From Candidatus Buchananbacteria bacterium (GTDB lineage Bacteria; Patescibacteriota; Patescibacteriia; Buchananbacterales; UBA6539), in NCBI GenBank assembly GCA_013359225.1, contig JABWCG010000004.1:1550-65549 (forward strand): a stretch of 64,000 nt of DNA, read 5' to 3'. Below the pieces are notes generated by a model. The model was not told the origin of the DNA and made no database searches. It saw only the letters and a list, made by a program, of their open reading frames with translations. This document shows positions 6,367 through 63,264 of this stretch, in pieces. Position numbers and translations under genes: made by a program. Every line of letters begins with the position of its first letter. Position 1 is the first letter of the stretch.

Positions 6367-6528
6367 ATTCTCACCCCCTTTCATGACTAATTTATTTAAA
6401 AATACCTTAGATATACTATACCATAAAACAACCTTAGACACCAAATTATTTACAAATGTCAACACTAAATGCTAAAATTAAACCACGAAAAACACTATTA
6501 ATAAAGATAAACGAAACCAAAAACAAAC

Positions 6529-8745: not shown

Positions 8746-8800
8746 GCGTAGCTAAAATAAAAAATCGGCTTATCATGATGAGTCGATTTTTTTAATTATA

Positions 8801-9445
8801 TCAAACAAATTTTAAAAACGGTTTTTTCTTTCTAGCAATAACACACAAATCCTCCTTGATTCGATTATGCGTAAACGGTTCAACTGACAAGGGATCATCA
8901 ACTGCCAGTTGCCGAATGGCAACAAATTGTTTTGCTCTTTTAAGTTGGTACAAAAGACCTTCAAGATCATAACACCACTTATGTGCCTCATGGGGCAAGC
9001 TGTGTGCAAAAATGGAAAAATAAAAGCTGGCCGGAGCATCTTTAGGAATGCGATGATGCGCCCACCATGAAAAACCTTTGAGTTCAGAGTAGCTGTTAGC
9101 TAAATACTTTTGAATATGCACTCTTAAATCAGGAACGGTGATTAAAATATAGCCGCCAGGATTTAATAGCTTGGCACAATTTTCCAAGCAACGCTGACCT
9201 TCTTCCATGGATAAGTGTTCAAACACGTGCTGCAGACGAATAAAATCAAACGTCCCAAGAGCTGCAACAGTTTCATCAGACAAGTGAGCGATATCGGCCT
9301 GGGTGTAACGGTCTTTGAACTCCTCGGGAACCTCATGGATAGAAAATAAATCCAAATAATGAAATCCATCCTCAAAGCGATCACCACAACCAACATCAAG
9401 CCAGCGAATCTTTTTTGACACTAGTAATTGTTCTTTCAAATTCAC
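8801..9445 (-). CDS. class I SAM-dependent methyltransferase
   Basis: LDVGCGD SAM-binding motif I; GTG start preceded by AGGAGA RBS. Confidence 0.6.
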   Translation of the reverse strand: MNLKEQLLVSKKIRWLDVGCGDRFEDGFHYLDLFSIHEVPEEFKDRYTQADIAHLSDETVAALGTFDFIRLQHVFEHLSMEEGQRCLENCAKLLNPGGYILITVPDLRVHIQKYLANSYSELKGFSWWAHHRIPKDAPASFYFSIFAHSLPHEAHKWCYDLEGLLYQLKRAKQFVAIRQLAVDDPLSVEPFTHNRIKEDLCVIARKKKPFLKFV

Positions 9446-9449
9446 GTTT

Positions 9450-9680
9450 TTATTCTCCTAAATAAGTAAATCGCGGCACCGTCGCATGGTTAATTTCTAT
9501 TTGCCCTAAAAACATCTTAGCCGGCCGAACCCAAAGCCGTGACGTTTCATTGTTATATAACGCTTCATACACCACTAAATCTTCCAAGGTCTCGCTGTGC
9601 TTGGCCAAACCAATCACCCGGTACTCTTTTCCGGTGTTATGTTTTTTACGAGGTAAGAACGAAAACGCTGTAAACAGCAA
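9450..9680 (-). CDS. small DUF1653-like protein
   Basis: 76 aa with YRvIGLAKHSET...LVVYEALY...LWVRP pattern; TTG start, so the start is uncertain. Confidence 0.3.
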   Translation of the reverse strand: MLFTAFSFLPRKKHNTGKEYRVIGLAKHSETLEDLVVYEALYNNETSRLWVRPAKMFLGQIEINHATVPRFTYLGE

Positions 9681-10588
9681 TAAATCGGTATAGAAAGGCC
9701 ACTACTTCCAAATTATTGGAATGTGGTCTTTTTTTGATACTATAAGTTTATTTCAATGATGCTATATCAGTAAAACTACCTCTACAATATTTCTCGTCTT
9801 TTCATTTCCCCAAAATTGATTTTCCTCAACTTTGTAATATAAGACCACCATTAATTTACTTAGCAAGCAGTAAACTCTTGGTAACACAGTAACATTGTCT
9901 CAAAGTGTGACAAATCAATGTTTCCGTAAATAGTAAAATGTGACTAGTGAGACAGGACTACTGGACGATTTTCACTTTTGCATGTAAACGATATAATAAA
10001 AATGTAAATTTAAGGATTTATTAAATGACCGTTACTAGAGGATGGAAGCCATATATTGATTTTAATATATGTTTCTGTCTATTTTTTACTTAAAATATTC
10101 AGAATATAGCTACTATAGTAAATTGTACATAAAATTAATGTTGATGTAACTCTATTGTAACCGATATGACTTATGCTGATAGCATACTTATGCCTCCATT
10201 ATAGTAATTATCGAACGATTGTTCACTCTACTCTTCATTACAACTTATTTATTGTATTGGGAAATATTTGGGAAATATGAAACCTTTGGAACACTTTTAC
10301 AGTCTAATATTTCAGAGGACAATTTAAAGTCCTCCGATAAACATAAGAAAAGTAAAGGGAGGTGGGTGCCATGCTACATATTAGGTCGCCGGACAAACTC
10401 ATAGAACATGCTGGACAAAGAAAATAGGCTCTCGCATATCATAAAAATCTCAACACCTCGAAAGTCGGCGATTTAAGGATATTTAAGAGCCTATAGCCCT
10501 ATTATACATCAGCATTTTTGCTGAATGCAACAAAGTTTTATAAGTGTTATAAAGCGATTTGGCTACAAATGAAAGGAGTTGTTTTTCA

Positions 10589-12394
10589 ATGAAAAGAAAA
10601 GGACTTTCGATTTTATTGACATTTGCATTGGTATTCTTTATGTTTGGTAGTACTGTTAATGCAGATAATGTAAAAAAGCCGTTACCTGATTTCACAAAAG
10701 CAAGTACTGTGGAAAAGAAATCTGTATCTACCACTGGAGAAAATGAAAAAAGCATAGAGCTTAAACTTGAAGGTCCAGTTAAATCAATGGCATGGGAAAC
10801 CCAAAAAATCTATCCTGATTTGCAAAAGCATTTAGACAGCCTTAAACCTGATGAGACCATAAAAGTTGACGTGTGCTTGGATTATAATTCGGACGTAACA
10901 GTAGATACATTTGTAAACAAGATTGTGTCCCAAGAAAAAGGTACATTTGGTAATACTAAAATTGAAAAACGCACGGCATTCCATTTCCTTACGGATGTCA
11001 ATAAACAACAAATTGATGCCCTGTCTAAAATGAAAGAAGTAAAATATATCAAGCTACCAGCAGTAAAGCAACAAATTAGCACTCCTAAAAAGACGAATGG
11101 ATTATTAAGCGACAGTGGAATCATCCCAATGATTAATGCATCAACTGAGATGACCGGAGCCAAAAAAGCACGCCAGGATTATGGCGTCACAGGGAATCGT
11201 GATGGAAATGAAACAAGTTACAGCAGCAATGATGTAGTAGTAGCCATCATTGATACTGGGATTGACAATACCCACGTTGATTTAGACGGCGGAAAAGTTA
11301 TCGGCTGGAGAGACTTTGTAAATAATAATGCAACCCCCTATGACGATAATGGACATGGTACGATGGTATCAAGCATCGTGGCGGGAACGGGCGAAGGAGA
11401 TCCGGGCATTGAAGTCGGTTTTGCACCTGGTGCAGCATTGGTTGGAATAAAAGTTGCTGATAGCACGGGAGGTTGGACAATTGATGATCTGGTTGACGGT
11501 ATTGATTGGGCTGTCGCAAACAGAACTACTTTAGGGATAAGAGTCATTAATATAAGCTTGGGTGCATACGGCAACAGCTCTAGTGAAATTGACGCCGTCA
11601 ATACTGCAATTACGAATGCAAATAATGTAGGAATTGCAGTAGTAGTAGCAGCGGGAAATGATGGCCCAGAGTATGATAATATGAGCCAATTGGTTTCATG
11701 TGATGATCCAATAGTAGTTGGTAGTATGGCTGACCCATATGAGGGTGGCTGGTATCCTAGTCTTTTCTCTTCACGTGGGACAGGCACCACAGGTCCTCTC
11801 ATTATGGCTCCTGGAGAAAATATAAGGGCAGCTGAGGCTAATTCGACAAATGAGTATGTTACCGAAAGTGGAACATCTTTCTCAACTCCAGCAATATCAG
11901 GAATTATTGCATTAATGATGGATGCAAGTAACGGAAGCTCAACCCTGAACTTCTATATCGAAGACTTTGGTAAATCAGGCTTCGATCCTGTTTGTGGCAA
12001 TGGTGAGGTTTTGGCTTACGATTCCATCAAGGCAGCTGGAGGATACTCATCAGGCTCCTTTAATGATTATCGAGATCATATTCGCGCTTCTGACACCATG
12101 CAGCAAGGAGATATACATGCTTACGACATTAACGTTTATGCAACAAGTTCCAATTTATATTGGGCAACAACCCTTATTATGACTGATGAGGACAGTGATG
12201 ATTTTGACCTATATATTTGGAATCCAGGGAGTGATCCTTCTGTTGATCCTCCGGATTACTCAAGCACATCAGTCGATCCCCAGGAAGTTATAAGTTTTAA
12301 ACCTACTACTACCGGAGTTTACACTGTTGCTGTTCATGCATTCTCAGGCAATGGTAACTATGCTTTAGACTTTTCTGGCCAAATTCGTCCTTAA
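10589..12394 (+). CDS. secreted subtilisin-like serine protease (peptidase S8) with N-terminal propeptide and C-terminal pre-peptidase (PPC) domain
   Basis: Catalytic triad motifs DTGID, HGTMV, GTSFSTP in correct order; Firmicute-like signal peptide MKRKGLSILLTFALVFFMFGSTVNA; AAAGGAG RBS 12 nt upstream of ATG; PPC-like tail; about 35% GC. Confidence 0.85.
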   Translation: MKRKGLSILLTFALVFFMFGSTVNADNVKKPLPDFTKASTVEKKSVSTTGENEKSIELKLEGPVKSMAWETQKIYPDLQKHLDSLKPDETIKVDVCLDYNSDVTVDTFVNKIVSQEKGTFGNTKIEKRTAFHFLTDVNKQQIDALSKMKEVKYIKLPAVKQQISTPKKTNGLLSDSGIIPMINASTEMTGAKKARQDYGVTGNRDGNETSYSSNDVVVAIIDTGIDNTHVDLDGGKVIGWRDFVNNNATPYDDNGHGTMVSSIVAGTGEGDPGIEVGFAPGAALVGIKVADSTGGWTIDDLVDGIDWAVANRTTLGIRVINISLGAYGNSSSEIDAVNTAITNANNVGIAVVVAAGNDGPEYDNMSQLVSCDDPIVVGSMADPYEGGWYPSLFSSRGTGTTGPLIMAPGENIRAAEANSTNEYVTESGTSFSTPAISGIIALMMDASNGSSTLNFYIEDFGKSGFDPVCGNGEVLAYDSIKAAGGYSSGSFNDYRDHIRASDTMQQGDIHAYDINVYATSSNLYWATTLIMTDEDSDDFDLYIWNPGSDPSVDPPDYSSTSVDPQEVISFKPTTTGVYTVAVHAFSGNGNYALDFSGQIRP

Positions 12395-12449
12395 AAGCAT
12401 ACTTGCCAAGAATAAATCCAAGTCCAATCTTGGCTCCTTACCTACAGTT

Positions 12450-12490
12450 AAAAGGATTGGTGGATTTCTCCATCAATCCTTTTAATATAT
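12450..12490. terminator. strong bidirectional terminator between convergent protease and inhibitor-like genes
   Basis: 15-bp stem aaaaggattggtgga/tccatcaatcctttt (1 mismatch), 4-nt loop, flanked by A/T runs. Confidence 0.6.
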
Positions 12491-12599
12491 TCCATAAAAT
12501 CAAACCCATGCTTTTCTGTCCAAAGTGATGGATGGTTTTCATGGAGTATGTTCGGTAATGTTTACACATAGAAACTGGTCATATCGTCATTAAGATTAC

Positions 12600-13319
12600 T
12601 TATTTGACTTCAATATCCTTTACTGCCATTAATTCATCAGGGCTTATGTTTTTTCCATTTTTAAGCTTTGGAAGCAATTTCACTGTAATGGAGTATTTTC
12701 CCGGTGGAACTCTGTTACCATTATTGTCCGTGTAACCCCAGACTTCAGAAAATGAAAGTTTTTCATATTTTTTTAATTCGATTTCTATGATGGACATTAG
12801 AAAACCTTTGCCATGGGACCATCTATACACTTCATCTCCATTACTGTCTGTAATAAAAATATCAAACTTTTGACTTGAACGGAAATAAAGAGCCAGGTCT
12901 TTGTCAGAAATATTATGTAGGGAAAAGTCAAGCTTGACCCCGCTGTCTTCCTGTTTAATATCCATTTCTGTATCGAAGACCCCTGTTACAGACTTTTGAG
13001 ATTCCTCTTTTATCTGCTTTGTCCGTTCCATAAATTCAGGGTCTGTTTTTTTTATTGCCGGCAAAGAATTAGTTTCAACGGAAGCCGGTACAGGTTTTAT
13101 TTCAATCGTGCTGTTATCCTGTGGTGTGTCTCGTTGTGTTGGTGACATGCTGATTGGCATCATGCTATTTAATTGACTGACTGTATTTTTAGCGTTAAGC
13201 ATATTTTTGGTTTTGTAGTCAAATCCAAAAATATTCTTATTTAATGAACCCAATAATATTGCCGTACAGCATAAAACCAAAACAGCGATGACTTTCTTGG
13301 TTTTTTTTATAACCTTCAT
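12600..13319 (-). CDS. secreted/lipoprotein with C-terminal BsuPI-like (intracellular proteinase inhibitor) Ig-like domain
   Basis: Start trimmed to MKVIKKTKK (signal peptide, AAAGGA RBS). The C-terminal roughly 110 aa (SQKFDIFITDSNGDEVYRWSHGKGF...LSFSEVW...PPGKYSITVKL) follows the B. subtilis Ipi/BsuPI pattern as recalled from memory; AT-rich. Confidence 0.5.
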   Translation of the reverse strand: MKVIKKTKKVIAVLVLCCTAILLGSLNKNIFGFDYKTKNMLNAKNTVSQLNSMMPISMSPTQRDTPQDNSTIEIKPVPASVETNSLPAIKKTDPEFMERTKQIKEESQKSVTGVFDTEMDIKQEDSGVKLDFSLHNISDKDLALYFRSSQKFDIFITDSNGDEVYRWSHGKGFLMSIIEIELKKYEKLSFSEVWGYTDNNGNRVPPGKYSITVKLLPKLKNGKNISPDELMAVKDIEVK

Positions 13320-13472
13320 AATATTACCCATCCTTTCTTCAAATTCATTTTTCATTTTATTAGACGTAGAAGCTGTATCATTTGTTCTGTATAAGTTCAA
13401 TTTTCTACATCTCCTAAAACTTTTCGACCTGTGCAATAATAGCATAAACATATTTAAACTATCTAAACTAAC

Positions 13473-14453
13473 TTATATATTTTCCAGCCATACCCGAAAT
13501 TCCTCCAGCGTCATGTCCCCTTTTAGGCACAATTCCCGTTTTTTTCTTGCCTCCTCCGCCCATTCGTAAAAAGCTTCCTTCGTGATTTTTCCATACTTAA
13601 TCCATGCAAACCGTTTTTTGTAGGCTTTACTGTATGCTTTTAAAGCCGGTGTGTCGGCTTTCTTTTTCTCCCATAGGCGAAGCGCCCCCATTTCCTTACA
13701 GGTGCGTCCAGTGCTGTCAAAGGGCCTGTCGCAGTATTCCGTGTTGATATGTCCGGTCAGGGCAAAGAATTGATTACAGTGCTTGCAGACACGGAAGCGT
13801 ATCTCCCGTTTGATACATTCGCGCACAAAAAAATCAATGATATCGTAAATGCTTTTTGGGTATAGGACTTCGGTAAAGGTCATTGAATCAACCACTTCAA
13901 AGCTCATGCGCAGGGGTTGAAATTCAAATACTTCCGGGTCACTCAGCCTTCTATCCCTTTTGGGGTTATAGTAATCTGCCATTTTCTTTTGTATGGGTTC
14001 ATCGGGAGAGAGGATATCCAGCACATGGTTCCATAAAGCCATAAGCTGACGTTGCATGGTGGAAAGGTTCATGGGTAGGTGGGTTAGCTTCTTGCGGGGA
14101 AGCAAATCCAGAACATCTTTAAAGCCTTGTTTTTCAGCCTGTTCCAGCTTGTCCAGCCATTCCAGGCGAAGGAATTCAAAATAGACATGTACTTTTGAAA
14201 GCGTGTTTAAATCATCCTTAATCTCCTCCACCAGTTTCAAGTCTTTATCGGGATACAGGTTATAAAGGTTTTCCCCCATCCGATTAAATAACTCACTATA
14301 AGGCCAAATGTCAAGGTATAGAATATCCATCAGGCTTTGCGAAAATGCGAAGCTCTTTTTTGTTGTCTTCTGCCCGTCCCCATATTCAAAATATTCTTTT
14401 CCATCGGATATATACACTTTATAGCTACATGCCAGCTTAATCTCTAAAAGCAT
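13473..14453 (-). CDS. hypothetical protein with C-terminal Cys4 zinc-ribbon (CKHC...C..RPFDSTGRTC)
   Basis: 326 aa from internal ATG (the tool ORF starts at TTG); no family recognised. Confidence 0.4.
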   Translation of the reverse strand: MLLEIKLACSYKVYISDGKEYFEYGDGQKTTKKSFAFSQSLMDILYLDIWPYSELFNRMGENLYNLYPDKDLKLVEEIKDDLNTLSKVHVYFEFLRLEWLDKLEQAEKQGFKDVLDLLPRKKLTHLPMNLSTMQRQLMALWNHVLDILSPDEPIQKKMADYYNPKRDRRLSDPEVFEFQPLRMSFEVVDSMTFTEVLYPKSIYDIIDFFVRECIKREIRFRVCKHCNQFFALTGHINTEYCDRPFDSTGRTCKEMGALRLWEKKKADTPALKAYSKAYKKRFAWIKYGKITKEAFYEWAEEARKKRELCLKGDMTLEEFRVWLENI

Positions 14454-14457
14454 AGTT

Positions 14458-15195
14458 TTAACGACTACCAATAATTAACGCACCCGAAACCCCATTAACG
14501 GTAAAATCAATTTTTTTAAAATAAATTCGGCGTCCAGTTTCTCTAATCAACGCCCTAACTTTTGAGACAGCTGGCAACCTGACCGCCAAACTAACATACG
14601 GAGGTTTTTGCGACGAACCATACAGTTCGTTGCCGCGAATATCAGCAATGCGGCGCGGATAGGTATCCAGTGCCAACAAATTCTGGCCATACCGTGCCGG
14701 GCAATAGTTTCGAAAGGGTCGATAATACGGGGCTTCATATTTTTCCCACATTTTAATTAGCTGAGTCGGCGTATGCAAATTCCCTCGACAATTTAAAGCG
14801 CCGCAGCGACAAATGTGCTCCCGGCACTCCCCCGCCCGACATAACAAAACATCATACAAATAGTTAACGGTCAACTCTTCGCCCGGAAAAATTCGTCTCA
14901 GGGCAAAATAAATCACGTGACCCCGATACGAATGCATAGCGCAATTCGGGGCACACGCGTGATTAATTAAATGAATGCCAATTTGTTTTGGGTCGGGCAG
15001 CACAATCAATTTGTCGGTGCAGTGCATGGCGTAAAAACTTTTTTCGTTTTCTTGCCCTTCGCGCTGTTCAGAAATGACCGTGCCCAAATAATCACCGATC
15101 ACCGTACCGGGGTTAATTTCTTTTTTAGCAAAAACCCCACGGCCCTTACCTTTAATTTTTTTGACCTGCCAATAATCGGCAGAAAGTAAAAACAT
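14458..15195 (-). CDS. SET-domain protein-lysine methyltransferase with post-SET Cys cluster
   Basis: GRGVFA...GTVIGDY.G, NHACAPNC, ELTVNY and post-SET CRCGALNCRG motifs. The tool ORF extends 5' through the tRNA genes (AEWFKA/AEWSKAP are tRNA read-through), so trimmed to ATG at 15195. Confidence 0.6.
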   Translation of the reverse strand: MFLLSADYWQVKKIKGKGRGVFAKKEINPGTVIGDYLGTVISEQREGQENEKSFYAMHCTDKLIVLPDPKQIGIHLINHACAPNCAMHSYRGHVIYFALRRIFPGEELTVNYLYDVLLCRAGECREHICRCGALNCRGNLHTPTQLIKMWEKYEAPYYRPFRNYCPARYGQNLLALDTYPRRIADIRGNELYGSSQKPPYVSLAVRLPAVSKVRALIRETGRRIYFKKIDFTVNGVSGALIIGSR

Positions 15196-15207
15196 ATAGT
15201 TTAATGC

Positions 15208-15426
15208 TGGCGGAGAGGACAGGATTTGAACCTGCGAGGACTTGCGCCCATCCCGTCGTTCACGAACGACTGGACGAGATCCCACATTAATCGGAAGGGG
15301 CGAGATTCGAACTCGCGAGACCGTTGCCGGTCTACCGCTTTTCGAGAGCGGCGCTTTCGACCACTCAGCCACCCTTCCGATTAATGTGGGACAAGCCGTC
15401 GCCTTAAACCACTCGGCCACCTCTCC
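15208..15426 (-). tRNA. split tRNA-Ser-like gene: 5' half (acceptor GGAGAGG plus Ser-type D-arm, 15379..15426) and 3' half (variable hairpins plus T-arm plus CCTCTCC-G-CCA, 15208..15291) separated by the complete tRNA-Ser(CGA) and its perfect 14-bp inverted-repeat flanks
   Basis: Only two D-arms and two T-arms are present in 219 nt. The outer acceptor strands are perfectly complementary and CCA is encoded. No canonical anticodon arm could be folded for the outer molecule. Confidence 0.35.
15292..15378 (-). tRNA. tRNA-Ser (anticodon CGA), class II with long variable arm; no encoded CCA
   Basis: GGAAGGG acceptor/CCCTTCC, D-arm GCTGAGTGGTCGAAAGC, anticodon stem CCGCU/AGCGG with loop CUCGAAA, variable arm, T-arm GCGAGTTCGAATCTCGC, discriminator G; folded by hand. 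Confidence 0.7.
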
Positions 15427-40697: not shown

Positions 40698-41837
40698 CTA
40701 CTGCTTAATCGGCATAATAATATACAAGTAGTCTTTATTTTTTCCGCCCGGCCGCAACACACAAGGGCTGCTCCCATCTATTATCTCAACAGCAACTTGT
40801 TCATCACCAATGTTTTGCAGGCCGTCTAAAAGATACCGATAATTTACGACAATTTTATTATTACTGCCGCTAATTTCCCCGGATAATCGTGAAAAATTTT
40901 CTCCCAGCTGATTATTAGCCGACGAAACCACAATTTCTTTTTTGTTAGGTAAAAACTCCAAGCTCACATCATAAATTCCGCTTCTGGTAAAAAGACTAGT
41001 TGTTTTGGTTGCTTTAATAAATTCCGAACTAACAAGGTTTGTTGTGGTATTAAATTGGTTTGGTATTATTTGCTGATAGTCGGGGTATTGTCCTTCAACT
41101 AGACGAGAGATCAACTCAATATTACCAAGAACAAATAAAATTTGATTTTCCGCCAAATAAATTTCTACATCCTCAAGATCAGAAATAGCGGCCGGATCCT
41201 TAAAACTTCCTAAAATTCTTTGTAACTCCTGTAAGGTTCGGGTGGGAATAATTATTTTTTGCGGAACACTGCTTGATTTTTTATTTAATATCACCGTTTT
41301 TTCCGCCAAACGATAACTATCAGTAGCGGCTAAAATCAGCTTATCACCCACAAAGTTAAAAAGTACCCCATTAATTTCAGGTCTGGTTTCACTAATAGAA
41401 ACCGCAAAAGTCACCTGACTAAGGGCTTGCCGTAAACTTTGACTATTTAAAATATAAGGGTTTTTTCGGTCGATTTGAGGAATTAAAGGAAAATCAGCAG
41501 CACTCTGGCCTTTAATTTTTGTTGAGTTATTTTTACACGCAACCTGTAAAACAGTTTCATTCTCAACTGTTTCTAAATCAACTCGATCACGTGGTAAAAG
41601 GCCAACATAATCAGCCAATAACCTTGATTGAACCGTAAAATCTCCTTCAGCTTCAACCTTGCCGCGAATAACACAACTAACTCCAATTTCTAAATTAGTT
41701 GAAGATAATGTAATTGAGCTTTCTGCCGCCTTAATTAAAATATTATTTAAAATTGGTAGCGCGGTATTTTTAGAAGCAATGTGACTAACAACGAACAAAC
41801 CCTGATTTAAATTTTCTTGAGTGCAGGAAATCTTCAT
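40698..41837 (-). CDS. dnaN: DNA polymerase III beta sliding clamp
   Basis: 379 aa, three-domain clamp pattern, located immediately downstream of dnaA. Confidence 0.85.
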   Translation of the reverse strand: MKISCTQENLNQGLFVVSHIASKNTALPILNNILIKAAESSITLSSTNLEIGVSCVIRGKVEAEGDFTVQSRLLADYVGLLPRDRVDLETVENETVLQVACKNNSTKIKGQSAADFPLIPQIDRKNPYILNSQSLRQALSQVTFAVSISETRPEINGVLFNFVGDKLILAATDSYRLAEKTVILNKKSSSVPQKIIIPTRTLQELQRILGSFKDPAAISDLEDVEIYLAENQILFVLGNIELISRLVEGQYPDYQQIIPNQFNTTTNLVSSEFIKATKTTSLFTRSGIYDVSLEFLPNKKEIVVSSANNQLGENFSRLSGEISGSNNKIVVNYRYLLDGLQNIGDEQVAVEIIDGSSPCVLRPGGKNKDYLYIIMPIKQ

Positions 41838-42121: not shown

Positions 42122-43483
42122 TTAATTGTACAATTTTTCTTTGATTAATCTGATGTCCTGATTTATTTTTTCATCCTCATCTATTAATTGAGCAATCTTT
42201 AAGTGAGCGTGCATGGCAGTAGTATGATCGCGATTACCGATCTCCTGGCCGATTGATGGAAAAGAATTTTTAAGTTCCTCGCGCATTAAATACATCACAA
42301 TTTGTCTAGGAACAGCAAGGTTTTTTTTCCGCGAAGCACCTAAAATTTCATCTAGCTTAATGTCGTAAAACTCGCAAACAATATTAATAATTTGTTTAGG
42401 GGTTACCGAACGTTTTCTTTGAGTTGAAGAAATCGTTGAAAGAATTTTTTTAACATTATCAATCTCTGGTTCAACGCCGTGCAGCTGGTGGTGAGCAATA
42501 ATTTTATTTAAAGCCCCCTCAAGCTCACGAATATTGTCTTGAATGTTGGTTACAATGTAGTTAATGACTTCATCTTTAAGCTGGTAGTTTTTTTCTTTGC
42601 ATTTATATCGTAGAATTGCTGAACGTGTTTCCATGTCGGGAGTTGAGATGTCGGCAATCATCCCCCATTCAAACCGCGATACAAGCCTGCTTTCTAGAGC
42701 TGGGATGGCTTTAGGTGGACGATCGGAAGTTAACACCACTTGTTTATTCGCTTGATGGAGATCGTTGAAAGTGTGAAAGAAAGCCTCTTGGGTTCCTTCC
42801 TTGCCGGCCAGAAATTGGATGTCGTCAATTAGCAACACATCAACACCGCGGTAGGTTTCTTTAAATTTTTCTGCCCGATTACTAGAAATTGATTTAATAA
42901 AATCGTTGGTAAATTTTTCGCACGAAACGTATAAGATCCGTTTGTTGGGAGCGGTTTGTTTAATTTGGTTGCCAATCGCCTGCATTAGGTGAGTTTTACC
43001 AAGACCGACGCCGCCGTAGATAAACAGCGGGTTGTACACTTCCCCGGGTTTTTGAGCCACCGCGGCGCTCGCCGCTTGGGCTAGTTCATTTGCTTTACCA
43101 ACGACGAAACTGTTGAAGTTATATTTTGGATTTAACCCAAACTCATTCAGGCCAGGCGTTTCTACAACCTCTTGCATCACCACCACTGTTTCTGGCTCAG
43201 CTTGGGCTTCGTTAACTTCGCTGCCGGCCTTTACTTTAGCCTCTACGCGGTAAATAAGAGTTTTAACCCGATTACCAGTGATTTTTTGCAGCGCCTTTAG
43301 GATGGCGGAATGGTATTTTTTTTCCAGCCAGGCTTTAGTAAAGGTATTGGGTACCCCAACCGTGATTGCATCTTCGTTGTATTGAGAGATAAAGGTATTT
43401 TTAAACCAGGTGGTAAAATTAGCCCGGCTAAGGGTTAATTCGAGTTCTCCAAGGGCAGCTTGCCAGATTTTTTCCTCTTCCAT
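42122..43483 (-). CDS. dnaA: chromosomal replication initiator DnaA
   Basis: Walker A GLGKTHL, AAA+ and C-terminal DNA-binding domain; 453 aa. Confidence 0.9.
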   Translation of the reverse strand: MEEEKIWQAALGELELTLSRANFTTWFKNTFISQYNEDAITVGVPNTFTKAWLEKKYHSAILKALQKITGNRVKTLIYRVEAKVKAGSEVNEAQAEPETVVVMQEVVETPGLNEFGLNPKYNFNSFVVGKANELAQAASAAVAQKPGEVYNPLFIYGGVGLGKTHLMQAIGNQIKQTAPNKRILYVSCEKFTNDFIKSISSNRAEKFKETYRGVDVLLIDDIQFLAGKEGTQEAFFHTFNDLHQANKQVVLTSDRPPKAIPALESRLVSRFEWGMIADISTPDMETRSAILRYKCKEKNYQLKDEVINYIVTNIQDNIRELEGALNKIIAHHQLHGVEPEIDNVKKILSTISSTQRKRSVTPKQIINIVCEFYDIKLDEILGASRKKNLAVPRQIVMYLMREELKNSFPSIGQEIGNRDHTTAMHAHLKIAQLIDEDEKINQDIRLIKEKLYN

Positions 43484-43839: not shown

Positions 43840-43843
43840 GTTT

Positions 43844-44447: not shown

Positions 44448-45197
44448 ATGATTGAACTATTTAATACCATATTATTTCAGCCGCTGTTTAATTTGTTGGT
44501 ATTTTTTTATAACTTAGTGCCCGGTAATGACTTGGGCGTAGCGATTATTTTACTGACGGTTTTAATTAAGGTAGTGCTGTATCCCCTTTCGTTGCAGTCA
44601 ATCCGATCACAAAAGGCGTTGCAAGAGCTGCAGCCGAAGATGGATGCGATTAAAAAGCAGTATAAAGACAATAAAGAGGCCCAGGCTAAGGCGTTGATGG
44701 ATCTATATAAACAGGAAAAGATTAACCCGTTATCATCCTGTTTGCCGTTGCTGGTCCAGCTGCCATTTTTAATCGCCGTGTTTCATGTTTTCAGTCGTGG
44801 GTTGAGCTCCGAAAGTTTAGATTTGTTGTATCCATTTATTCAAAATCCAGGCCACTTAAATCCAATCTCGCTTGGATTCTTTGATTTATCAAAACCAAAC
44901 ATTATTTTGGCGGTATTAACCGGTTTAGCACAATTTTTCCAGAGCAAAATGCTGGTGAGCACTAAACAGCCAAAAGTGCCCGGCGCGAAGGACGAAGACA
45001 TGATGGCGGCGATGAATAAGCAGATGCTATATTTTATGCCGTTAATGACAGTGGTAATTGGTGCTTCTTTGCCAGCCGGTCTTTTGGTGTACTGGTTTGT
45101 AACAACGGTATTAACTGTATTGCAACAGCAACTAATTTTTGGCCGTAAGAAAATAAAGCCGGCCGAAACTACAAACAACGATGAAAATCTCAAGTAA
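44448..45197 (+). CDS. yidC: membrane protein insertase YidC (short, 249 aa form)
   Basis: 5-TM core with conserved LYP/LLVQLPF region; operon position. Confidence 0.8.
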   Translation: MIELFNTILFQPLFNLLVFFYNLVPGNDLGVAIILLTVLIKVVLYPLSLQSIRSQKALQELQPKMDAIKKQYKDNKEAQAKALMDLYKQEKINPLSSCLPLLVQLPFLIAVFHVFSRGLSSESLDLLYPFIQNPGHLNPISLGFFDLSKPNIILAVLTGLAQFFQSKMLVSTKQPKVPGAKDEDMMAAMNKQMLYFMPLMTVVIGASLPAGLLVYWFVTTVLTVLQQQLIFGRKKIKPAETTNNDENLK

Positions 45198-50214: not shown

Positions 50215-50225
50215 AATTATTGAAA

Positions 50226-50276
50226 CAAAAGGAAAGAGGCTCGACACAGACTGTTAGGTCTTGGTCGAGCCTCTTG
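50226..50276. terminator. bidirectional terminator (11-bp GC-rich stem agaggctcgac/gtcgagcctct)
   Basis: Perfect inverted repeat between convergent truD and the GC-rich gene; U-run on the minus-strand side. Confidence 0.55.
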
Positions 50277-50297
50277 TTGTGCGTGCAGGTTGGACCG

Positions 50298-50918
50298 CTA
50301 CTCGTCGACTTCGTCGACGTGAGCGGTCACGGGGACTGCGCACAGTTCGTGGTTACGCACCACGAGAGCGTTTTCGGGGTCGCGATACTTGCCGGCTCCG
50401 TCATCCCACTGGCGTCCGACGAGGTTGATTGTCGCCGTCTTGTCCGGATTGCTCCAGACATGGGCATACTGCCAGGTGGTGTTGGCGAGTTCGCGCAGGG
50501 CGCGGGTGGTTCCTTCCGGCAGGTCGGCCGACGTCGTCGCTTCGCGGTCAAACGTGAGGCACACCATGTGCTTGGGTTTGTGGCCGCGCTGCGCCGGGGG
50601 TTTGGTGAAGTAGTGGGCGTCGGTGAGACGATACCCGTTATTCACCAGTCCGCGCCGGATCATCGCCGTCTGGACCATGCCCAGGTTCTGGATCACCGGC
50701 GTGCCGGTGTCCACCCTGCCTTCGCGGTGGCGTCCGATTTGGGCCTCTTCCGTTTGCCCAGACTGGACCGCCGAAACCATGTGAGTGGCATCTACCACGT
50801 GGTCGGCTTCCCGCTTCTTTACGGGGATTCCGTTCGGGATATGTTTGTCGTTGGTGAACGCGAATTTCACGATCACTCGCGACGGACCGTTCCCATTCAA
50901 ACTCAAACATTGCTGCAT
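50298..50918 (-). CDS. hypothetical protein, GC-rich (about 62% GC) foreign-looking cassette
   Basis: Start trimmed to ATG (MQQCLSL) with GAGGAG RBS at 8 nt; own terminator; no family recognised; overlapping both-strand ORFs are a GC-rich artefact. Confidence 0.45.
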   Translation of the reverse strand: MQQCLSLNGNGPSRVIVKFAFTNDKHIPNGIPVKKREADHVVDATHMVSAVQSGQTEEAQIGRHREGRVDTGTPVIQNLGMVQTAMIRRGLVNNGYRLTDAHYFTKPPAQRGHKPKHMVCLTFDREATTSADLPEGTTRALRELANTTWQYAHVWSNPDKTATINLVGRQWDDGAGKYRDPENALVVRNHELCAVPVTAHVDEVDE

Positions 50919-51095
50919 GGCCGTTTCTCCTCTATTGTTGGCCCTATAAACCCGTTGTTTATCGCCCCATTCCCGTGAAAAGAGCAATAAATTATCATAG
51001 CATATTTGGCTTAAAAAGTCAATATATTAAACAAAAAATGGCCTTATTCAGGCCATTTTTGATAATCTTAGTTTAAATTTAGCTCAGTTTAGTAA

Positions 51096-54325: not shown

Positions 54326-54337
54326 TCAGTTACTCCT

Positions 54338-55396
54338 TTAGCCAAGCTGTTGTCGGACATTGATTCCGTAAAACGCTTCCAACCGGGAAAACGTTTCCGG
54401 GGCGTTATGATGAACTTCATCCAAAGCTTGCCGGCAGGCAGCCTCGGCTGAATCATCAACCGGTCCAAGCGGCGGCCGCATGGTACCGGTATCAAGACCA
54501 AGGATGCGCATCATGGTTTTGATGGCGCAGGGGTTGGGCCACTTGTCGGTGACGTGGCTTTGGGGATCGTGGTTAGTTCGCGGTCCGGCTGAACTGACGC
54601 CAACTTTACCAAACAGCGGGTTGAGTTGTTGGTTAAGTTGGCGGCCAAGCGCACAGTTGCGACGAAGAATGGCCTTAACCATCCGGTCAATCGGGTTTGG
54701 GATGATGTTACTCATCACCGAAATCACACCGTCGCCGGCAATGCCGTCGGCAATCATCATGTCAGCAGTGATGGCGTCATCGCCGCTGAAAATCTTGAAA
54801 TGCTCAAGGATCCCAATTTCGTTTTGGACCAAGAAGCGCGTCCGGCGCATGTTTTCAAGATCGCCTGTTGCCTCTTTGACCGCACGAACGTTGGGGCACT
54901 CTTGCGCCAAGATCGCCAGGTCAAGCGGCTCAAGCTTGCAGCAGGTGCGTCCCGGGATGATGTAGGGCACGACCAGACATTTGGGGTTGGCGTGGTAGAC
55001 GGCTCGCGCAATCGGTTGGTGGTAGTGTTGGCGCAATTGAGCCGAAGCTGGCTTGTTGTAATAAGGCTCAACCAGCAAAACCCCGTCCGCGCCATCTTCG
55101 GCCGCCTCAATGGAGGCTTTGAGGGCTTCGGCGGTGTTATTGCTGCCAGTGCCGGCCAGAACAAAGACTCGACCCTTGGTCCAAGAGATCACGCGCCTGA
55201 TTAGGCGGTAGTGTTCTTCCCAGGTTAGGGTTGGGCTTTCGCCGGTGGTGCCGCAAGGCAGTACGCCAGCCACGCCTTGGCTGATTTGAAATTCCAGGTT
55301 GCGCTGCAGGCGCTCCCAATCAATTTCGCCGTTTTCGGTGAACGGCGTCACCAGGGCGGTGGTTACGCCCACCAGTCGCGACTGTGGTTTTTCCAT
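54338..55396 (-). CDS. dapA: 4-hydroxy-tetrahydrodipicolinate synthase (DapA/NAL aldolase family) with roughly 50-aa C-terminal extension
   Basis: GTTGES, AGTGSNNT, EPYYNKP, Schiff-base Lys in VKEATGD, SGDD, GVISV motifs collinear with E. coli DapA; about 56% GC. Confidence 0.65.
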   Translation of the reverse strand: MEKPQSRLVGVTTALVTPFTENGEIDWERLQRNLEFQISQGVAGVLPCGTTGESPTLTWEEHYRLIRRVISWTKGRVFVLAGTGSNNTAEALKASIEAAEDGADGVLLVEPYYNKPASAQLRQHYHQPIARAVYHANPKCLVVPYIIPGRTCCKLEPLDLAILAQECPNVRAVKEATGDLENMRRTRFLVQNEIGILEHFKIFSGDDAITADMMIADGIAGDGVISVMSNIIPNPIDRMVKAILRRNCALGRQLNQQLNPLFGKVGVSSAGPRTNHDPQSHVTDKWPNPCAIKTMMRILGLDTGTMRPPLGPVDDSAEAACRQALDEVHHNAPETFSRLEAFYGINVRQQLG

Positions 55397-61817: not shown

Positions 61818-62058
61818 GCGGTGAATTTGACATTTGTCGGTACTTTGCTACGATAGTGATATGAAATTCAACCTATTAATGAAATCTTGTCAGTCATCAT
61901 CATTGTCATCAGGCCTCTCAAATTCTGGGGGAAGGTTGGTTTTTACCTAAATATAAAAGCAATTTAGTTAGCAATCAGCCTTTCACCTGTTGAGAGGCTG
62001 ATTTTTTAGCGTCAGAAGCTCTTTTCACTTGTTATCTAACGTTAAGGAGGGTGGTTTG

Positions 62059-63264
62059 ATGAAAGCGTTATTGCTGGATGGTCTTGACGGTGTTGCCGCC
62101 AACATTTTTGAAGCCGCGGGCATTGAAGTGACGCTGGCCAAAACAATTGACCGGCCGGATTTGCTTCGGCAGGTCGGCGCTTACCATTTTTTGGGAGTTC
62201 GCGGTGCGACGAAAATTGACCGTGAATTGCTGGATGCGGCCACCACCTTAGTGGCGGTTGGTCGTGGCGGTGCCGGTATGAACGGCATTGATGTTGACTA
62301 CGCGACGCAGCGGGGTGTAGTGGCGTTTAATACGCCCGGCGCCAACGCTGAGTCGGTGGCTGAATGTGTAATTGGGGTAATACTTGACGCCTTACACCGG
62401 TTGCACAAGGGGTCAACCGGCATGGCGCAGCACACTTGGCTCAAGAAACAGTGCAATGGCAATTCGCTTCGTGGCCGAACCGTCGGCGTTGTCGGTTTCG
62501 GCTATGTCGGCAAGTGGCTGGCCCGGTTGTTGGAACCGTTTGGCGTTCGGGTTTTGTCTTATGACATCAATCCGACAGCTGAACTGCCTTGGGTACCGTT
62601 TGTGCCGCTGCCGGCACTGCTGGCTGAGTCTGATGTCGTCAGTTTGCATTTGCCGCTGACTTCATCAACCCGCGGCCTGGTCAATGCCGACTTTCTAAAT
62701 CAGCTTAAACCCGGCGCGTTACTGGTGAATTTCGCCCGCGGTGAGCTGATTGACGAAGCAGCTGTGGTGGCGGCACTGGCCACTAATCAACTGTTTGGCT
62801 ACGCCACCGACGTATACCCTCAGGAACCGCCAACTGCTGAATACTATGCGGCTAGTCCGTTGTTTAGCCGGCCCGAGCTTTTTACCGATGGTCGACTGAT
62901 TATGACGCCGCATCTCGCAGCCAGTAGCGAAGAAGCACAGCAAACAGTTTCAGAAGCATTGGCCAAGCGCGCCGTCGCCTACCTGAAGGAAGGCAAAATC
63001 CCCTGGGGTGCTAATTTCCCGATTTTCTACCTAGCGAGCGTGGCTGATGCGCGGCTGATTGTTTTTCATCCCGACGAGCAAGGGATGGAAGCAGCGGTCC
63101 TGGGAGAGGTTAAGGGGTTTGCCAACATCGCCGCCAGCATTAATCAGCGCGTCGCACCGGGCGGCGTTGCCTATACCGTGATTGATGTTGACGGTGCACT
63201 TTCTCGTGAACTGATTAATCGGGTCAAGCATCTTCCCGGCGTTATTGCTGTTCATTGTGCTTAA
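62059..63264 (+). CDS. D-3-phosphoglycerate dehydrogenase-like 2-hydroxyacid dehydrogenase with C-terminal ACT-like domain; GC-rich (about 60%)
   Basis: NAD-binding GxGxxG (VGVVGFGYVG), catalytic region, AAGGAGG RBS 8 nt upstream of ATG (the tool ORF starts at upstream TTG). Confidence 0.6.
   Translation: MKALLLDGLDGVAANIFEAAGIEVTLAKTIDRPDLLRQVGAYHFLGVRGATKIDRELLDAATTLVAVGRGGAGMNGIDVDYATQRGVVAFNTPGANAESVAECVIGVILDALHRLHKGSTGMAQHTWLKKQCNGNSLRGRTVGVVGFGYVGKWLARLLEPFGVRVLSYDINPTAELPWVPFVPLPALLAESDVVSLHLPLTSSTRGLVNADFLNQLKPGALLVNFARGELIDEAAVVAALATNQLFGYATDVYPQEPPTAEYYAASPLFSRPELFTDGRLIMTPHLAASSEEAQQTVSEALAKRAVAYLKEGKIPWGANFPIFYLASVADARLIVFHPDEQGMEAAVLGEVKGFANIAASINQRVAPGGVAYTVIDVDGALSRELINRVKHLPGVIAVHCA

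What the first reader, a model, noticed from the sequence alone, without database searches (positions are those of the whole stretch)
9690..13472. AT-rich (about 33% GC) island encoding a secreted S8 subtilase convergent with a secreted BsuPI-like protease-inhibitor protein
Composition, codon usage and the Firmicute-style signal peptide and RBS differ sharply from the roughly 45% GC background. The protease (propeptide, S8, PPC tail) and a lipoprotein whose C-terminal domain matches the Bacillus intracellular proteinase inhibitor (Ipi/BsuPI) pattern share a strong bidirectional terminator. A secreted protease plus cognate inhibitor pair next to a tRNA and a SET-domain gene looks like a horizontally acquired module. 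Possible roles are surface-protein maturation, host-surface degradation, nutrition for an auxotrophic episymbiont, or pilin/prepeptide processing. It is preceded by a 900-nt AT-rich non-coding leader containing inverted repeats (e.g. CAGCATTTTTGCTG at about 10517 and AGGCTCT...AGAGCCT at 10427..10493). These may be regulatory RNA structures.
Basis: partly seen in the sequence, partly recalled or inferred. Interest (0 to 1): 0.65.

Follow-up and report, generated by a model that had tools for sequence, protein, structure and literature searches.

The report
Clostridial protease-inhibitor DNA fragment inside CPR genome
A 4.8-kb piece of DNA almost identical to that of a cellulose-degrading Clostridium relative (Pseudobacteroides), carrying a secreted subtilisin-type protease and a BsuPI-type putative inhibitor, has very recently been spliced into a small gene of an ultra-small 'Candidatus Buchananbacteria' bacterium; the genes are ordinary, but the transfer between phyla is unusually well resolved and may hint at who this bacterium lives with.

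Summary
The genes are real. There is a pre-pro-subtilase (S8, catalytic residues intact, C-terminal beta-jelly-roll). Convergent with it is an N-terminally anchored BsuPI-domain protein. The two share an 18-bp hairpin. The window is a contig of a Candidatus Buchananbacteria MAG (CPR).

The foreign segment is window 9631-14434, not 9690-13472, and it also includes a DUF6076 gene. It differs by one base in 4,804 from contigs of other metagenomes. There it lies between an RHS gene and the relaxase/recombinase backbone of a clostridial integrative mobilizable element. Exact flank proteins carry the label Pseudobacteroides sp.

A related Buchananbacteria contig (L108) shows the empty site, with DUF1653 directly behind the SET gene. 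In the window DUF1653 is split by the insert, about 20 nt are lost, and the joints show only 2-7 nt of microhomology. This is a recent inter-phylum transfer by illegitimate recombination. It is not a tRNA-targeted island: there is no integrase and no att repeats, and SET and tRNA-Ser are native.

GC is 36.7% against a 43.5% background, not 33% against 45%. The protein has no lipobox. The 'leader' is donor intergenic DNA with no recognisable RNA family. The protease-inhibitor pairing is inferred, and the adjacency is rare among homologues.

The parts
9450..9629 (-). 3' remnant of the native DUF1653 gene (codons about 17-74). The annotated ORF 9450..9680 borrows an island-derived N-terminus with a TTG start and no RBS.
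   Evidence: Pfam PF07866, E 7e-22. It is 76.5% nt identical to L108 1559-1735, and the homology stops at 9626. Junction alignment.
9630..9631 (.). Left junction between recipient and donor DNA, with a CC microhomology.
   Evidence: Three-way alignment of window, relative L108 and donor L111. The same junction appears in the independent Logan contig L010 from SRR25608322.
9631..9693 (+). Last 63 nt (18 codons plus stop) of the donor's RHS/YD-repeat gene, carried along as a fragment.
   Evidence: In L001, L109 and L111 this stretch is continuous with a 908-916 aa RHS ORF ending ...NLYTYCHNEPVLCFLRGKNENAVNSNKSV*.
9692..9736 (+). Donor terminator of the RHS gene: a hairpin followed by a run of seven T.
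   Evidence: Fold -18.7 kcal/mol, z -5.8. It starts at the RHS stop codon.
9744..10558 (+). It includes inverted repeats at 10424-10494 and 10510-10523 and a promoter-like site at 9969-9997.
   Evidence: Identical in donor contigs. No Rfam family matches. Fold z is -2.9 and -1.3. Promoter scan. One donor variant has an IS inserted at 10499/10500.
10589..12394 (+). Pre-pro-subtilase (601 aa). It has a signal peptide ending VNA|DN, an I9/Tk-SP-like propeptide (about 70-160), an S8 catalytic domain (D222, H256, N357, S430) and a C-terminal beta-jelly-roll/PPC domain (about 495-598). The RBS AAAGGAG lies at 10572-10578.
   Evidence: NCBI NUM25897.1. There is one substitution against the donors, 11114 A/G, giving S176/G176.
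12447..12486 (.). Shared hairpin between the convergent genes. Its shape fits a bidirectional intrinsic terminator.
   Evidence: Inverted repeat I18. An 18-bp stem forms on both strands.
12600..13319 (-). BsuPI-domain protein (239 aa from ATG 13319, which has an RBS; NCBI aa from 13355). It has an N-terminal hydrophobic anchor or signal without a lipobox, a disordered linker of about 70 aa, and a C-terminal Ig-like BsuPI domain.
   Evidence: NUM25898.1.
13473..14434 (-). DUF6076 gene, the first gene on the cargo side of a clostridial integrative mobilizable element. Its ATG is lost at the junction (CTG at 14435).
   Evidence: PF19553, E 3e-16. Homologues are from Clostridia. 94% nt identity to L019/L020 over 13483-14438. 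100% identity to donor L111. NUM25899.1.
14434..14438 (.). Right junction between donor and recipient DNA, with a GCCA.CTT microhomology.
   Evidence: Three-way alignment and the sequences printed.
14435..14453 (-). Native start and first 6-7 codons of DUF1653 (ATG 14453, MLLEIKL), now fused in frame to DUF6076, 4 nt after the SET stop codon.
   Evidence: Homologous to L108 1760-1787. Frame check.
14458..15195 (-). Native SET-domain gene. It is not part of the island.
   Evidence: PF00856, E 8.5e-19. An orthologue at 76% nt identity sits in L108 directly upstream of an intact DUF1653.
15291..15379 (-). Native tRNA-Ser(CGA). It is not the integration site.
   Evidence: It is conserved in L108 and lies 857 nt from the junction, with SET in between.

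Best explanation
Window 9631-14434 is a 4.8-kb fragment of clostridial DNA. The donor lineage is labelled Pseudobacteroides sp. (Oscillospiraceae, Bacillota). The fragment was taken up by a Candidatus Buchananbacteria (CPR/Patescibacteria) cell and joined into its chromosome by illegitimate, microhomology-mediated recombination. It sits inside the small gene DUF1653, with loss of about 20 nt.

It is not a self-mobile element. It is an arbitrary cut-out of the donor. One end lies in the last 63 nt of an RHS gene. The other end lies at the start codon of DUF6076, the gene that borders the cargo side of a serine-recombinase/relaxase integrative mobilizable element. The event is very recent, with one substitution in 4,804 nt.

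The cargo is a secreted pre-pro-subtilase with a C-terminal beta-jelly-roll. Convergent with it is a membrane-anchored or secreted BsuPI-domain protein, and the two share a hairpin terminator.

Inferred, not shown:
- In the donor the BsuPI protein acts at the cell surface as a tight but reversible blocker of the neighbouring protease, protecting the producer.
- In the recipient, DUF6076 (fused in frame to the first codons of DUF1653, just behind SET) and the downstream BsuPI gene can be transcribed from the native SET promoter. The protease depends on donor signals.
- DUF1653 is inactivated.
- Whether the acquisition benefits the CPR cell is unknown. It may be a neutral, transient passenger.
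For: Host identity: window proteins are NUM25894-25949 of a Ca. Buchananbacteria MAG.

Donor identity:
- At least 15 contigs from other samples carry the segment at 99.9-100% identity, with different flanks.
- L111 matches 9631-14438 with a single internal mismatch. It continues into DUF6075, a NikA/MobC-like gene and a relaxase.
- Exact flank proteins are HOV26957.1 and HOV26953.1, labelled [Pseudobacteroides sp.]. The element's backbone proteins cluster at 90% identity or more with R. herbifermentans and A. thermocellus proteins.
- DUF6076 sits in the same backbone, with different cargo, in L019/L020.

Empty site: relative L108 has DUF1653 intact, 4 nt after SET.

Junctions: three-way alignments show switches at CC and at GCCA.CTT. 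The left junction recurs in the independent contig L010.

Composition: GC is 38.0% against 43.5%. Tetranucleotide z is 6.7. The island is nearer to the donor flank (0.018) than to the backbone (0.029).

Protein identities.

No integrase or att repeats.

Background: Saccharibacteria are naturally competent (PMC10633639). HGT into Patescibacteria from other phyla is documented (bioRxiv 10.1101/2022.10.05.510940).
Against: - The recipient context rests on one MAG contig plus one 1-kb Logan contig.
- The right junction was not found in any independent assembly. An exact 40-mer is absent from the JGI metagenome contigs, and several SET and DUF1653 start variants are not on record.
- L010 itself ends in a 30-nt chimeric tip from a 65% GC organism. 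Such contigs are therefore not artefact-free.
- Near-100% identity to an abundant community member is also what contamination would give.
- The donor's taxon name is a submitter's label on a third-party MAG.
- Protease-inhibitor coupling is inferred from adjacency alone, and adjacency is rare.
- The inhibitor status of the BsuPI family is itself disputed (PMC3901451).
- There are no expression data.
Confidence: 0.8

Rival explanations
1. Assembly or binning artefact. The clostridial segment was never in the Buchananbacteria chromosome, and the contig is a chimera of two community members.
For: - The segment is essentially identical to DNA that is common in many metagenomes.
- The recipient context is known from one MAG.
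- L010 shows that chimeric tips occur.
- The right junction was not seen independently.
Against: - Graph chimeras need a shared k-mer. Here donor and recipient share only 2 nt and 4+3 nt at the joints.
- The contig leaves and re-enters the same CPR gene within about 20 nt of its native sequence. A relative shows the two flanks are contiguous.
- The left joint recurs at the same base in a different data set and assembler.
- The fusion is in frame and annotated in the NCBI record (NUM25899.1).
Confidence: 0.08
2. A complete genomic island or integrative element that integrated site-specifically next to tRNA-Ser.
For: - A tRNA-Ser lies 857 nt from the right border.
- The donor element does encode a recombinase and a relaxase elsewhere.
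Against: - No integrase, recombinase or relaxase lies within 9631-14434.
- No convincing direct repeats flank it. The best are 70-74% identical over 27-35 nt.
- SET and the tRNA are native.
- The insertion point is inside DUF1653.
- The segment ends in the middle of a donor RHS gene and at a donor start codon.
Confidence: 0.02
3. The module is an adaptive, expressed acquisition. The CPR cell secretes the protease to feed on, or remodel, the surface of its partner, and uses the BsuPI protein for self-protection.
For: - All three ORFs are intact.
- The protease has a Sec-type signal and a strong RBS.
- BsuPI and DUF6076 are placed behind a native promoter.
- CPR bacteria are auxotrophic epibionts (PMC10633639).
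Against: - One substitution since transfer means intactness says nothing about selection.
- The fragment also carries obvious junk (an RHS tail, a donor terminator and DUF6076).
- The relative lacks it.
- There is no evidence that clostridial promoters work in this host.
Confidence: 0.15
4. Transfer in the opposite direction, or vertical inheritance. The genes are native to Buchananbacteria and were passed to Clostridia.
For: None beyond the shared sequence.
Against: - All homologues of S8, BsuPI and DUF6076 with names are from Bacillota.
- The donor context continues on both sides in clostridial DNA.
- The relative's empty site.
- Composition matches the donor flank.
Confidence: 0.01

Closest known systems
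Bacillus subtilis IPI (BsuPI, PF12690; PDB 3ISY) and the subtilase Isp1
   Same: The partner protein has the same Ig-like domain (Pfam 76.6 bits; 3ISY E 2.6e-9; model TM 0.76). It lies beside an S8 subtilase, the enzyme class that IPI inhibits with a Ki of about 1e-9 M (PMC3901451).
   Different: - Here the domain follows an N-terminal hydrophobic anchor and a disordered linker of about 70 aa, so it is extracytoplasmic. The protease is secreted and carries a propeptide and a jelly-roll domain.
- The two genes are adjacent and convergent. Rigden et al. found no IPI homologue next to a subtilase gene in any complete genome (PMC3901451).
- Inhibition by this protein is untested, and the family's inhibitor status is disputed.
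Tk-SP, subtilisin-like protease of Thermococcus kodakarensis (PDB 3AFG, 9UES)
   Same: It is the best sequence and structure match over the propeptide, catalytic domain and C-terminal beta-jelly-roll (phmmer E 1e-55 over residues 210-595; Foldseek E 4e-41 over 568 columns).
   Different: Identity is only 26-32%. The window protein belongs to a Bacillota clade (40-61% identical to Paenibacillus, Syntrophomonadaceae and Carbobacillus proteins). It has an extra N-terminal beta-hairpin segment (residues 39-59).
Horizontally acquired regions in Patescibacteria genomes (Gios et al., bioRxiv 10.1101/2022.10.05.510940)
   Same: It is foreign DNA from another phylum in a streamlined CPR genome, detected by composition and by a donor match. 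Donor-recipient pairs were used there to propose hosts.
   Different: - Here the donor DNA is near-identical (1 difference in 4,804 nt).
- Both the donor context and the empty site are available, and the joints can be read to the base.
- They show illegitimate recombination of a non-mobile fragment rather than an island with mobility genes.
Clostridial integrative mobilizable elements with a large serine recombinase, MobC/NikA-like protein, PF03432 relaxase, DUF6075 and DUF6076 (as in L019/L020 and L111; backbone proteins at 90% identity or more in Ruminiclostridium herbifermentans and Acetivibrio thermocellus)
   Same: DUF6076 and the genes downstream of it occupy the position where other copies carry different cargo (HEPN plus GmrSD in L019).
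   Different: The window holds only DUF6076 and the cargo-side DNA. The recombinase, relaxase, candidate oriT hairpin (L111 7211-7253) and DUF6075 are absent. What sits in the CPR genome cannot move by itself. I found no paper naming DUF6075 or DUF6076.

Membership tests
Peptidase S8 (subtilase) | Match to PF00082 above the gathering score | tested here: met
   132 bits against a cut-off of 21.8, E 3e-38.
Peptidase S8 (subtilase) | Catalytic Asp-His-Ser in subtilase order, plus the oxyanion-hole Asn | tested here: met
   D222 (DTGID), H256 (HGT), N357 (AAGN) and S430 (GTS) are invariant in 16 aligned homologues.
Peptidase S8 (subtilase) | Subtilisin alpha/beta fold | tested here: met
   AlphaFold model with pLDDT 81. 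Top PDB hits are 3AFG (E 4e-41) and subtilisins at TM about 0.8.
Peptidase S8 (subtilase) | Proteolytic activity and secretion | not testable with these tools
   Only the sequence pattern is available: MKRKGLSILLTFALVFFMFGSTVNA|DN. No signal-peptide predictor was available.
PPC / beta-jelly-roll C-terminal domain | Match to PF04151 above the gathering score | tested here: not met
   18 bits against a cut-off of 25.9. However, 10 of 16 aligned homologues match (best E 1e-12). The 3AFG alignment and the model show a beta-sandwich at 496-597.
Inhibitor I9 / Tk-SP N-propeptide | Profile match or beta-alpha-beta-beta-alpha-beta fold before the catalytic domain | tested here: inconclusive
   This protein has no Pfam hit. 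Two homologues hit PF05922 and one hits PF18237. The model shows beta/alpha elements at 76-155, and the alignment to ProN-Tk-SP spans 568 columns.
BsuPI (PF12690, IPI family) | Profile match above the gathering score | tested here: met
   76.6 bits against a cut-off of 22.9, over residues 161-259 of the 283-aa ORF.
BsuPI (PF12690, IPI family) | Ig-like fold of IPI (3ISY) | tested here: met
   The C-terminal domain has pLDDT of 80-94 over most of its length. The top PDB match is 3ISY, E 1e-8, TM 0.76 normalised to the target.
BsuPI (PF12690, IPI family) | Inhibition of a subtilase | not testable with these tools
   Needs enzyme kinetics. The family's status as inhibitor versus competing substrate is unresolved (PMC3901451).
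Bacterial lipoprotein | Lipobox [LVI][ASTVI][GAS]-C after a signal sequence | tested here: not met
   No lipobox lies in the first 80 residues. Cys61 and Cys62 are preceded by L and C.
tRNA-targeted genomic island / integrative element | Integrase or recombinase gene inside the element | tested here: not met
   The ORFs in 9631-14434 are S8, BsuPI and DUF6076 only. The recombinase and relaxase exist only in donor contigs.
tRNA-targeted genomic island / integrative element | Flanking direct repeats (att) and insertion at the tRNA | tested here: not met
   The best border repeats are 70-74% identical. The joints lie inside DUF1653, 857 nt from the tRNA, with the native SET gene in between.
Recent horizontal transfer | Absent from the same site in a relative (empty site) | tested here: met
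   In L108, DUF1653 is intact and 4 nt downstream of SET.
Recent horizontal transfer | Identifiable donor-type sequence with a different context | tested here: met
   One mismatch in 4,804 nt against L111, L109 and L001. The flanks carry the label Pseudobacteroides sp..
Recent horizontal transfer | Junctions supported by independent data | tested here: inconclusive
   The left junction is in L010 from SRR25608322. The right junction was not found elsewhere. Reads were not available.
Intrinsic (bidirectional) terminator | Stable hairpin flanked by A and U tracts between convergent genes | tested here: met
   An 18-bp stem at 12447-12486 with TTAAAA...TTTTAA arms. z is -6.9 on the + strand and -4.7 on the - strand. 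Function was not tested.
Cis-regulatory RNA in the 5' leader | Match to a described RNA family, or a clearly non-random conserved structure | tested here: not met
   No Rfam match exists other than a chance miRNA hit at E 0.097. Fold z is -2.9 and -1.3. No diverged homologues were available to test covariation.

The most novel reading that the evidence does not exclude
The Buchananbacterium lives in physical association with the Pseudobacteroides population and took this DNA directly from its partner. The route could be competence-type uptake of host DNA. It could also be abortive, Hfr-like mobilisation from the unexcised element, because the fragment begins about 1.2 kb from a candidate oriT hairpin and runs away from the relaxase genes. 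In either case the insert would be a sequence-level host link for a Parcubacteria-group lineage with no known host. It would also be a natural example of how CPR genomes fix host DNA by microhomology joining.
Probability: 0.2. Interest if true: 0.75.

Novelty: new member of a known kind. Interest (0 to 1): 0.5.

Why it matters
Hosts of almost all CPR lineages outside Saccharibacteria are unknown, and gene transfer is one of the few clues used to guess them. Here a transfer from Clostridia into a Buchananbacteria genome can be read at single-base resolution. The donor context, the empty site, both joints and the age (one substitution) are all visible.

- This gives a concrete, testable pairing between Buchananbacteria and Pseudobacteroides.
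- It shows that such genomes can fix non-mobile foreign fragments by illegitimate recombination.
- It is a caution for annotators. A 'secreted protease of an episymbiont' may be a days-old passenger rather than part of its biology.

Separately, the donor's adjacent subtilase and BsuPI genes are a rare natural pair. They could be used to test whether BsuPI proteins are true subtilase inhibitors, which has been an open point since the family was withdrawn from MEROPS.

Tried and rejected
- **att sites and direct repeats at the borders**. Only weak matches of 70-74% identity turned up, so this was rejected.
- **Rfam on the whole window and, permissively, on 9600-10650**. Nothing relevant was found.
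- **Close relatives of the protease in species-representative genomes**. None were found, so neither the MAG nor the donor is a GTDB representative.
- **Conserved S8-BsuPI synteny.** I tested 80 genomic loci of S8 relatives with phmmer and a purpose-built BsuPI HMM, and only L060 has the pair. The nearest S8 homologue and the three nearest BsuPI homologues are unpaired.
- **Defence-system reading**, prompted by the fact that other copies of the element carry HEPN/GmrSD. PADLOC and NCBIfam give only generic S8 hits far below their cut-offs.
- **L010's divergence at 9743/9744 as an alternative structure.** I first read it this way. The 30 divergent bases are an exact match to a 65% GC organism's transporter gene, so it is a chimeric tip.
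- **9631 as the defined end of a mobile element.** I first thought so because the RHS ORF seemed truncated there. The simpler reading is that the donor is continuous and 9631 is just the break point of the transferred piece.
- **The low-GC block at 41-42 kb as a second island.** It is the dnaN-dnaA origin region.
- **Exact look-ups of SET, DUF1653 and DUF6076 start variants to find the right junction elsewhere.** None are on record.
- **The right-junction 40-mer in JGI metagenome contigs**. No match.
- **The island against PLSDB plasmids**. No match.
- **Papers on the accessions, on DUF6075/6076, or on Buchananbacteria together with Pseudobacteroides**. None.

Full report
**What is in the sequence**

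The first, 10589-12394 (+), is a subtilase:
- It matches Pfam Peptidase_S8 at E 3e-38.
- D222, H256, N357 and S430 are invariant in an alignment with 15 homologues.
- The best solved relative is Tk-SP (3AFG). It matches by sequence over residues 210-595. It matches by structure over 568 columns of an AlphaFold model with pLDDT 81.
- The architecture is therefore signal peptide, I9/Tk-SP-like propeptide, catalytic domain and C-terminal beta-jelly-roll.
- The PPC call is below Pfam's cut-off in this protein (18 against 25.9 bits). It holds only by homology, since 10 of 16 aligned homologues match.

The second ORF, 12600-13319/13355 (-), ends in a BsuPI domain:
- Pfam scores 76.6 bits against a cut-off of 22.9.
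- PDB 3ISY matches at E 2.6e-9, and the model's top PDB match is 3ISY at TM 0.76.
- The domain follows a hydrophobic N-terminal segment and a linker predicted to be disordered.
- There is no lipobox, so 'lipoprotein' is not supported.

Between the two genes, an 18-bp hairpin at 12447-12486 with A/U-rich flanks folds far better than shuffles on both strands. The quoted inverted repeats in the upstream region exist. The larger folds only modestly better than chance (z -2.9) and the smaller not at all (z -1.3). No Rfam family matches.

The deviation is nevertheless real, with tetranucleotide z = 6.7.

**Whose genome this is**

Exact look-ups place the window on a 65.6-kb contig of a MAG named Candidatus Buchananbacteria bacterium (proteins NUM25894-NUM25949). 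The backbone carries PolA, SMC, PBP1A, GalU, dnaA/dnaN and several T4SS-pilin paralogues. The protease is NUM25897.1, the BsuPI protein is NUM25898.1 and DUF6076 is NUM25899.1.

**The segment is foreign, and the donor can be named**

The protease's named homologues are all from Bacillota, at 40-61% identity. The few BsuPI relatives and all named DUF6076 relatives are from Clostridia.

More telling, at least 15 contigs from other sequencing projects carry the same DNA at 99.9-100% identity, but with other neighbours. In these contigs the segment follows a transposase fragment and a 908-916 aa RHS protein on contigs of 45-57 kb with 31-39% GC.

One 11-kb contig (L111) runs through the whole segment and on into DUF6075, a NikA/MobC-like gene, a PF03432 relaxase and a further partial ORF. 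L111 matches window 9631-14438 with a single internal mismatch: 11114 A in the window against G in the donors, giving S176/G176 in the protease linker.

Proteins of the donor flank are sequence-identical to HOV26957.1 and HOV26953.1, labelled Pseudobacteroides sp. The backbone proteins of the mobile element cluster at 90% identity or more with proteins of Ruminiclostridium herbifermentans and Acetivibrio thermocellus. Pseudobacteroides is a genus of Clostridia.

DUF6076 occurs in another metagenome (L019/L020) in the same backbone: serine recombinase, relaxase, NikA-like, DUF6075, then DUF6076. There it is followed by different cargo, HEPN and GmrSD. Homology to the window ends 10 nt before the DUF6076 stop codon. 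The DUF6075-DUF6076 intergenic region is 96% conserved between the two element copies.

**The empty site and the joints**

An 8.4-kb contig of a related organism (L108) has GalU in the same 90%-identity protein cluster as the window's and a backbone 72-76% identical in DNA. Its gene order is large EccB-like gene, DUF1653, SET..., tRNA-Ser, GalU. There DUF1653 is intact and lies 4 nt downstream of SET.

In the window the same gene is split:
- Its start and first 6-7 codons (ATG 14453, MLLEIKL) sit just after the SET stop. They are fused in frame to DUF6076, whose own ATG reads CTG at 14435.
- Its codons from about 17 onward sit at 9450-9629.
- About 20 nt of DUF1653 (encoding roughly RYQHYKG) are missing.

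Three-way alignments show the window switching from recipient-like to donor sequence at CC (9629-9630). It switches back at GCCA.CTT (14431-14438).

There is no recombinase in the segment and there are no flanking repeats. SET and tRNA-Ser are native. The donor-side ends are arbitrary: one is 63 nt before the end of the RHS ORF and the other is at a start codon. This is the signature of illegitimate, microhomology-mediated integration of a DNA fragment, not of an integrative element.

**Is it an artefact?**

This was the main worry, because near-identity to an abundant community member is what contamination looks like. Four points argue against it:
- Assembly-graph chimeras need a shared k-mer, and the joints share 2 nt and 4+3 nt.
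- The contig leaves and re-enters the same 225-nt CPR gene, and the flanks are contiguous in a relative.
- The left joint occurs at the same base in an independent Logan contig (L010, SRR25608322). That contig is 100% identical to window 8735-9743.
- The last 30 nt of L010 diverge and at first looked like an alternative structure. They are an exact match to a transporter gene of an unrelated 65% GC organism, so they are a chimeric tip.

What remains open is the right joint. It was not found in any other assembly, and reads could not be examined. I put the artefact explanation at about 0.08.

**How it most likely works**

*Shown.* The structure, origin and recency of the insert are shown. So are the identities of the three genes, and the inactivation of DUF1653 by loss of its conserved N-terminal motif.

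*Inferred for the donor.* The protease is secreted and autoprocessed like other pre-pro-subtilases. The adjacent BsuPI protein, tethered outside the membrane, binds it reversibly and shields the producer. B. subtilis IPI inhibits subtilases with a Ki of about 1e-9 M. Many IPI homologues carry signal peptides or a membrane anchor (PMC3901451).

*Caveats on that inference.* The same paper found no IPI gene adjacent to a subtilase gene in complete genomes, and it notes that the family was removed from MEROPS because inhibitor and competing substrate could not be told apart. My own tests agree that adjacency is rare:
- The closest S8 homologue is unpaired.
- The three closest BsuPI homologues are unpaired.
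- Only 1 of 80 genomic loci (L060) has both genes.

*Inferred for the recipient.* DUF6076 and BsuPI lie downstream of SET in the same orientation, with the native DUF1653 start fused to DUF6076, so they can be transcribed from native signals up to the hairpin. The protease must rely on clostridial signals: the RBS AAAGGAG 10 nt before the ATG, and a promoter-like site at 9969-9997. With one substitution since transfer, intact ORFs say nothing about selection.

*Route of entry.* This is unknown. Competence-type uptake is the simplest, since Saccharibacteria are naturally transformable (PMC10633639). Patescibacteria also carry a monoderm-type T4SS of unknown function, and some carry relaxases taken as evidence that mobile elements reached them by conjugation (PMC12102498). 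A candidate oriT hairpin lies about 1.2 kb beyond the fragment's end in the donor (L111 7211-7253). An abortive mobilisation is therefore conceivable but unsupported.

**Comparison with what is known, and novelty**

Horizontally acquired regions are documented in Patescibacteria, including transfers from other phyla that have been used to propose hosts (bioRxiv 10.1101/2022.10.05.510940). S8 and BsuPI are well-known families. The finding is therefore a new member of known kinds.

Several things are unusual:
- The resolution, since the donor context, empty site and joints are all readable to the base.
- The recency of the event.
- The inter-phylum distance between Clostridia and CPR.
- The non-mobile nature of the fragment.

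No paper links Buchananbacteria with Pseudobacteroides. I found none that mentions DUF6075 or DUF6076.

**Verdict**

The genes and their foreign, Firmicute origin are right. The borders, the tRNA/att picture, the lipoprotein call, the GC figures and the regulatory-leader idea are not.

Interest is 0.5. The cargo is ordinary. However, the event gives a testable host hypothesis for a CPR lineage, and a natural protease-BsuPI pair for biochemistry.

Noticed in passing
window 40698-44400: This is the replication-origin region. dnaN (40698..41837, -) and dnaA (42122..43483, -) lie here, with YidC at 44448..45197. The 1-kb GC minimum (33.6%) and the minimum of cumulative GC skew both fall at about 41 kb. 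The island lies about 27-30 kb from the origin.
   Followed up: partly
window 8801-9445: A class I SAM methyltransferase gene sits between the EccB-like gene and DUF1653. It is absent from the related contig L108, so it is a second indel right next to the insertion site. It is present in the independent contig L010.
   Followed up: partly
L108 2535-3651, compared with window 15196-15290: The relative has an HD-domain gene (195 aa) and a 139-aa ORF between SET and tRNA-Ser. The window lacks both, so this neighbourhood is a hot spot of gene-content change.
   Followed up: no
window 15280-15391: A perfect 20-nt inverted repeat (15280-15299 / 15372-15391) embraces tRNA-Ser(CGA). It extends the acceptor stem by about 12 bp into the flanks (fold -68 kcal/mol, z -6.9). 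This is an unusual precursor structure, possibly a processing signal.
   Followed up: partly
window 6007-6465 and 17751-18218 (more copies suggested by L108 6106-8379): There are multiple T4SS-pilin (PF18895/TrbC) paralogues on both sides of the locus. This fits the published observation that Patescibacteria keep a monoderm-type T4SS with several pilin copies, often near dnaA (PMC12102498).
   Followed up: no
L013/L112 3395-5250 (window-equivalent position 10499/10500): In one donor-type contig (JGI 3300023203) an IS with a DDE_Tnp_1 transposase replaces everything upstream of window-equivalent 10500. Only 89 nt remain before the protease ATG, so most of the 'leader' is dispensable or the IS supplies a promoter.
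   Followed up: partly
L015 1150-2955: In one donor-type contig the protease is called as two ORFs (318 + 265 aa). This is a frameshifted or error-containing copy in that sample.
   Followed up: no
L010 1-30; L113 1834-1863; L114 1848-1877: The Logan contig that confirms the left junction ends in 30 nt identical to a transporter gene of a 65% GC organism (JADKLW010000390.1; ERZ1673962 NODE-2). This is a chimeric tip, and a reminder that such contigs need checking base by base.
   Followed up: yes
window 11114: This is the only internal difference between the island and all donor contigs compared. The window has A and the donors have G, changing Gly176 to Ser in the low-confidence linker between the propeptide and the catalytic domain.
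   Followed up: yes
window 50001-51000, 54001-55000, 62001-63000: Three 1-kb blocks have 54-55% GC in a 43.5% genome. They cover an ORF without a Pfam match at 50220..50978, a DHDPS-family gene at 54338..55396 and a phosphoglycerate-dehydrogenase-like gene at 62029..63264. They may be other acquisitions.
   Followed up: no
L060 6001-7739: This is the only other locus found with an S8 gene directly followed by a BsuPI-like ORF ('Firmicutes bacterium ZCTH02-B6', in tandem rather than convergent). It is a possible second natural pair for testing inhibition.
   Followed up: partly
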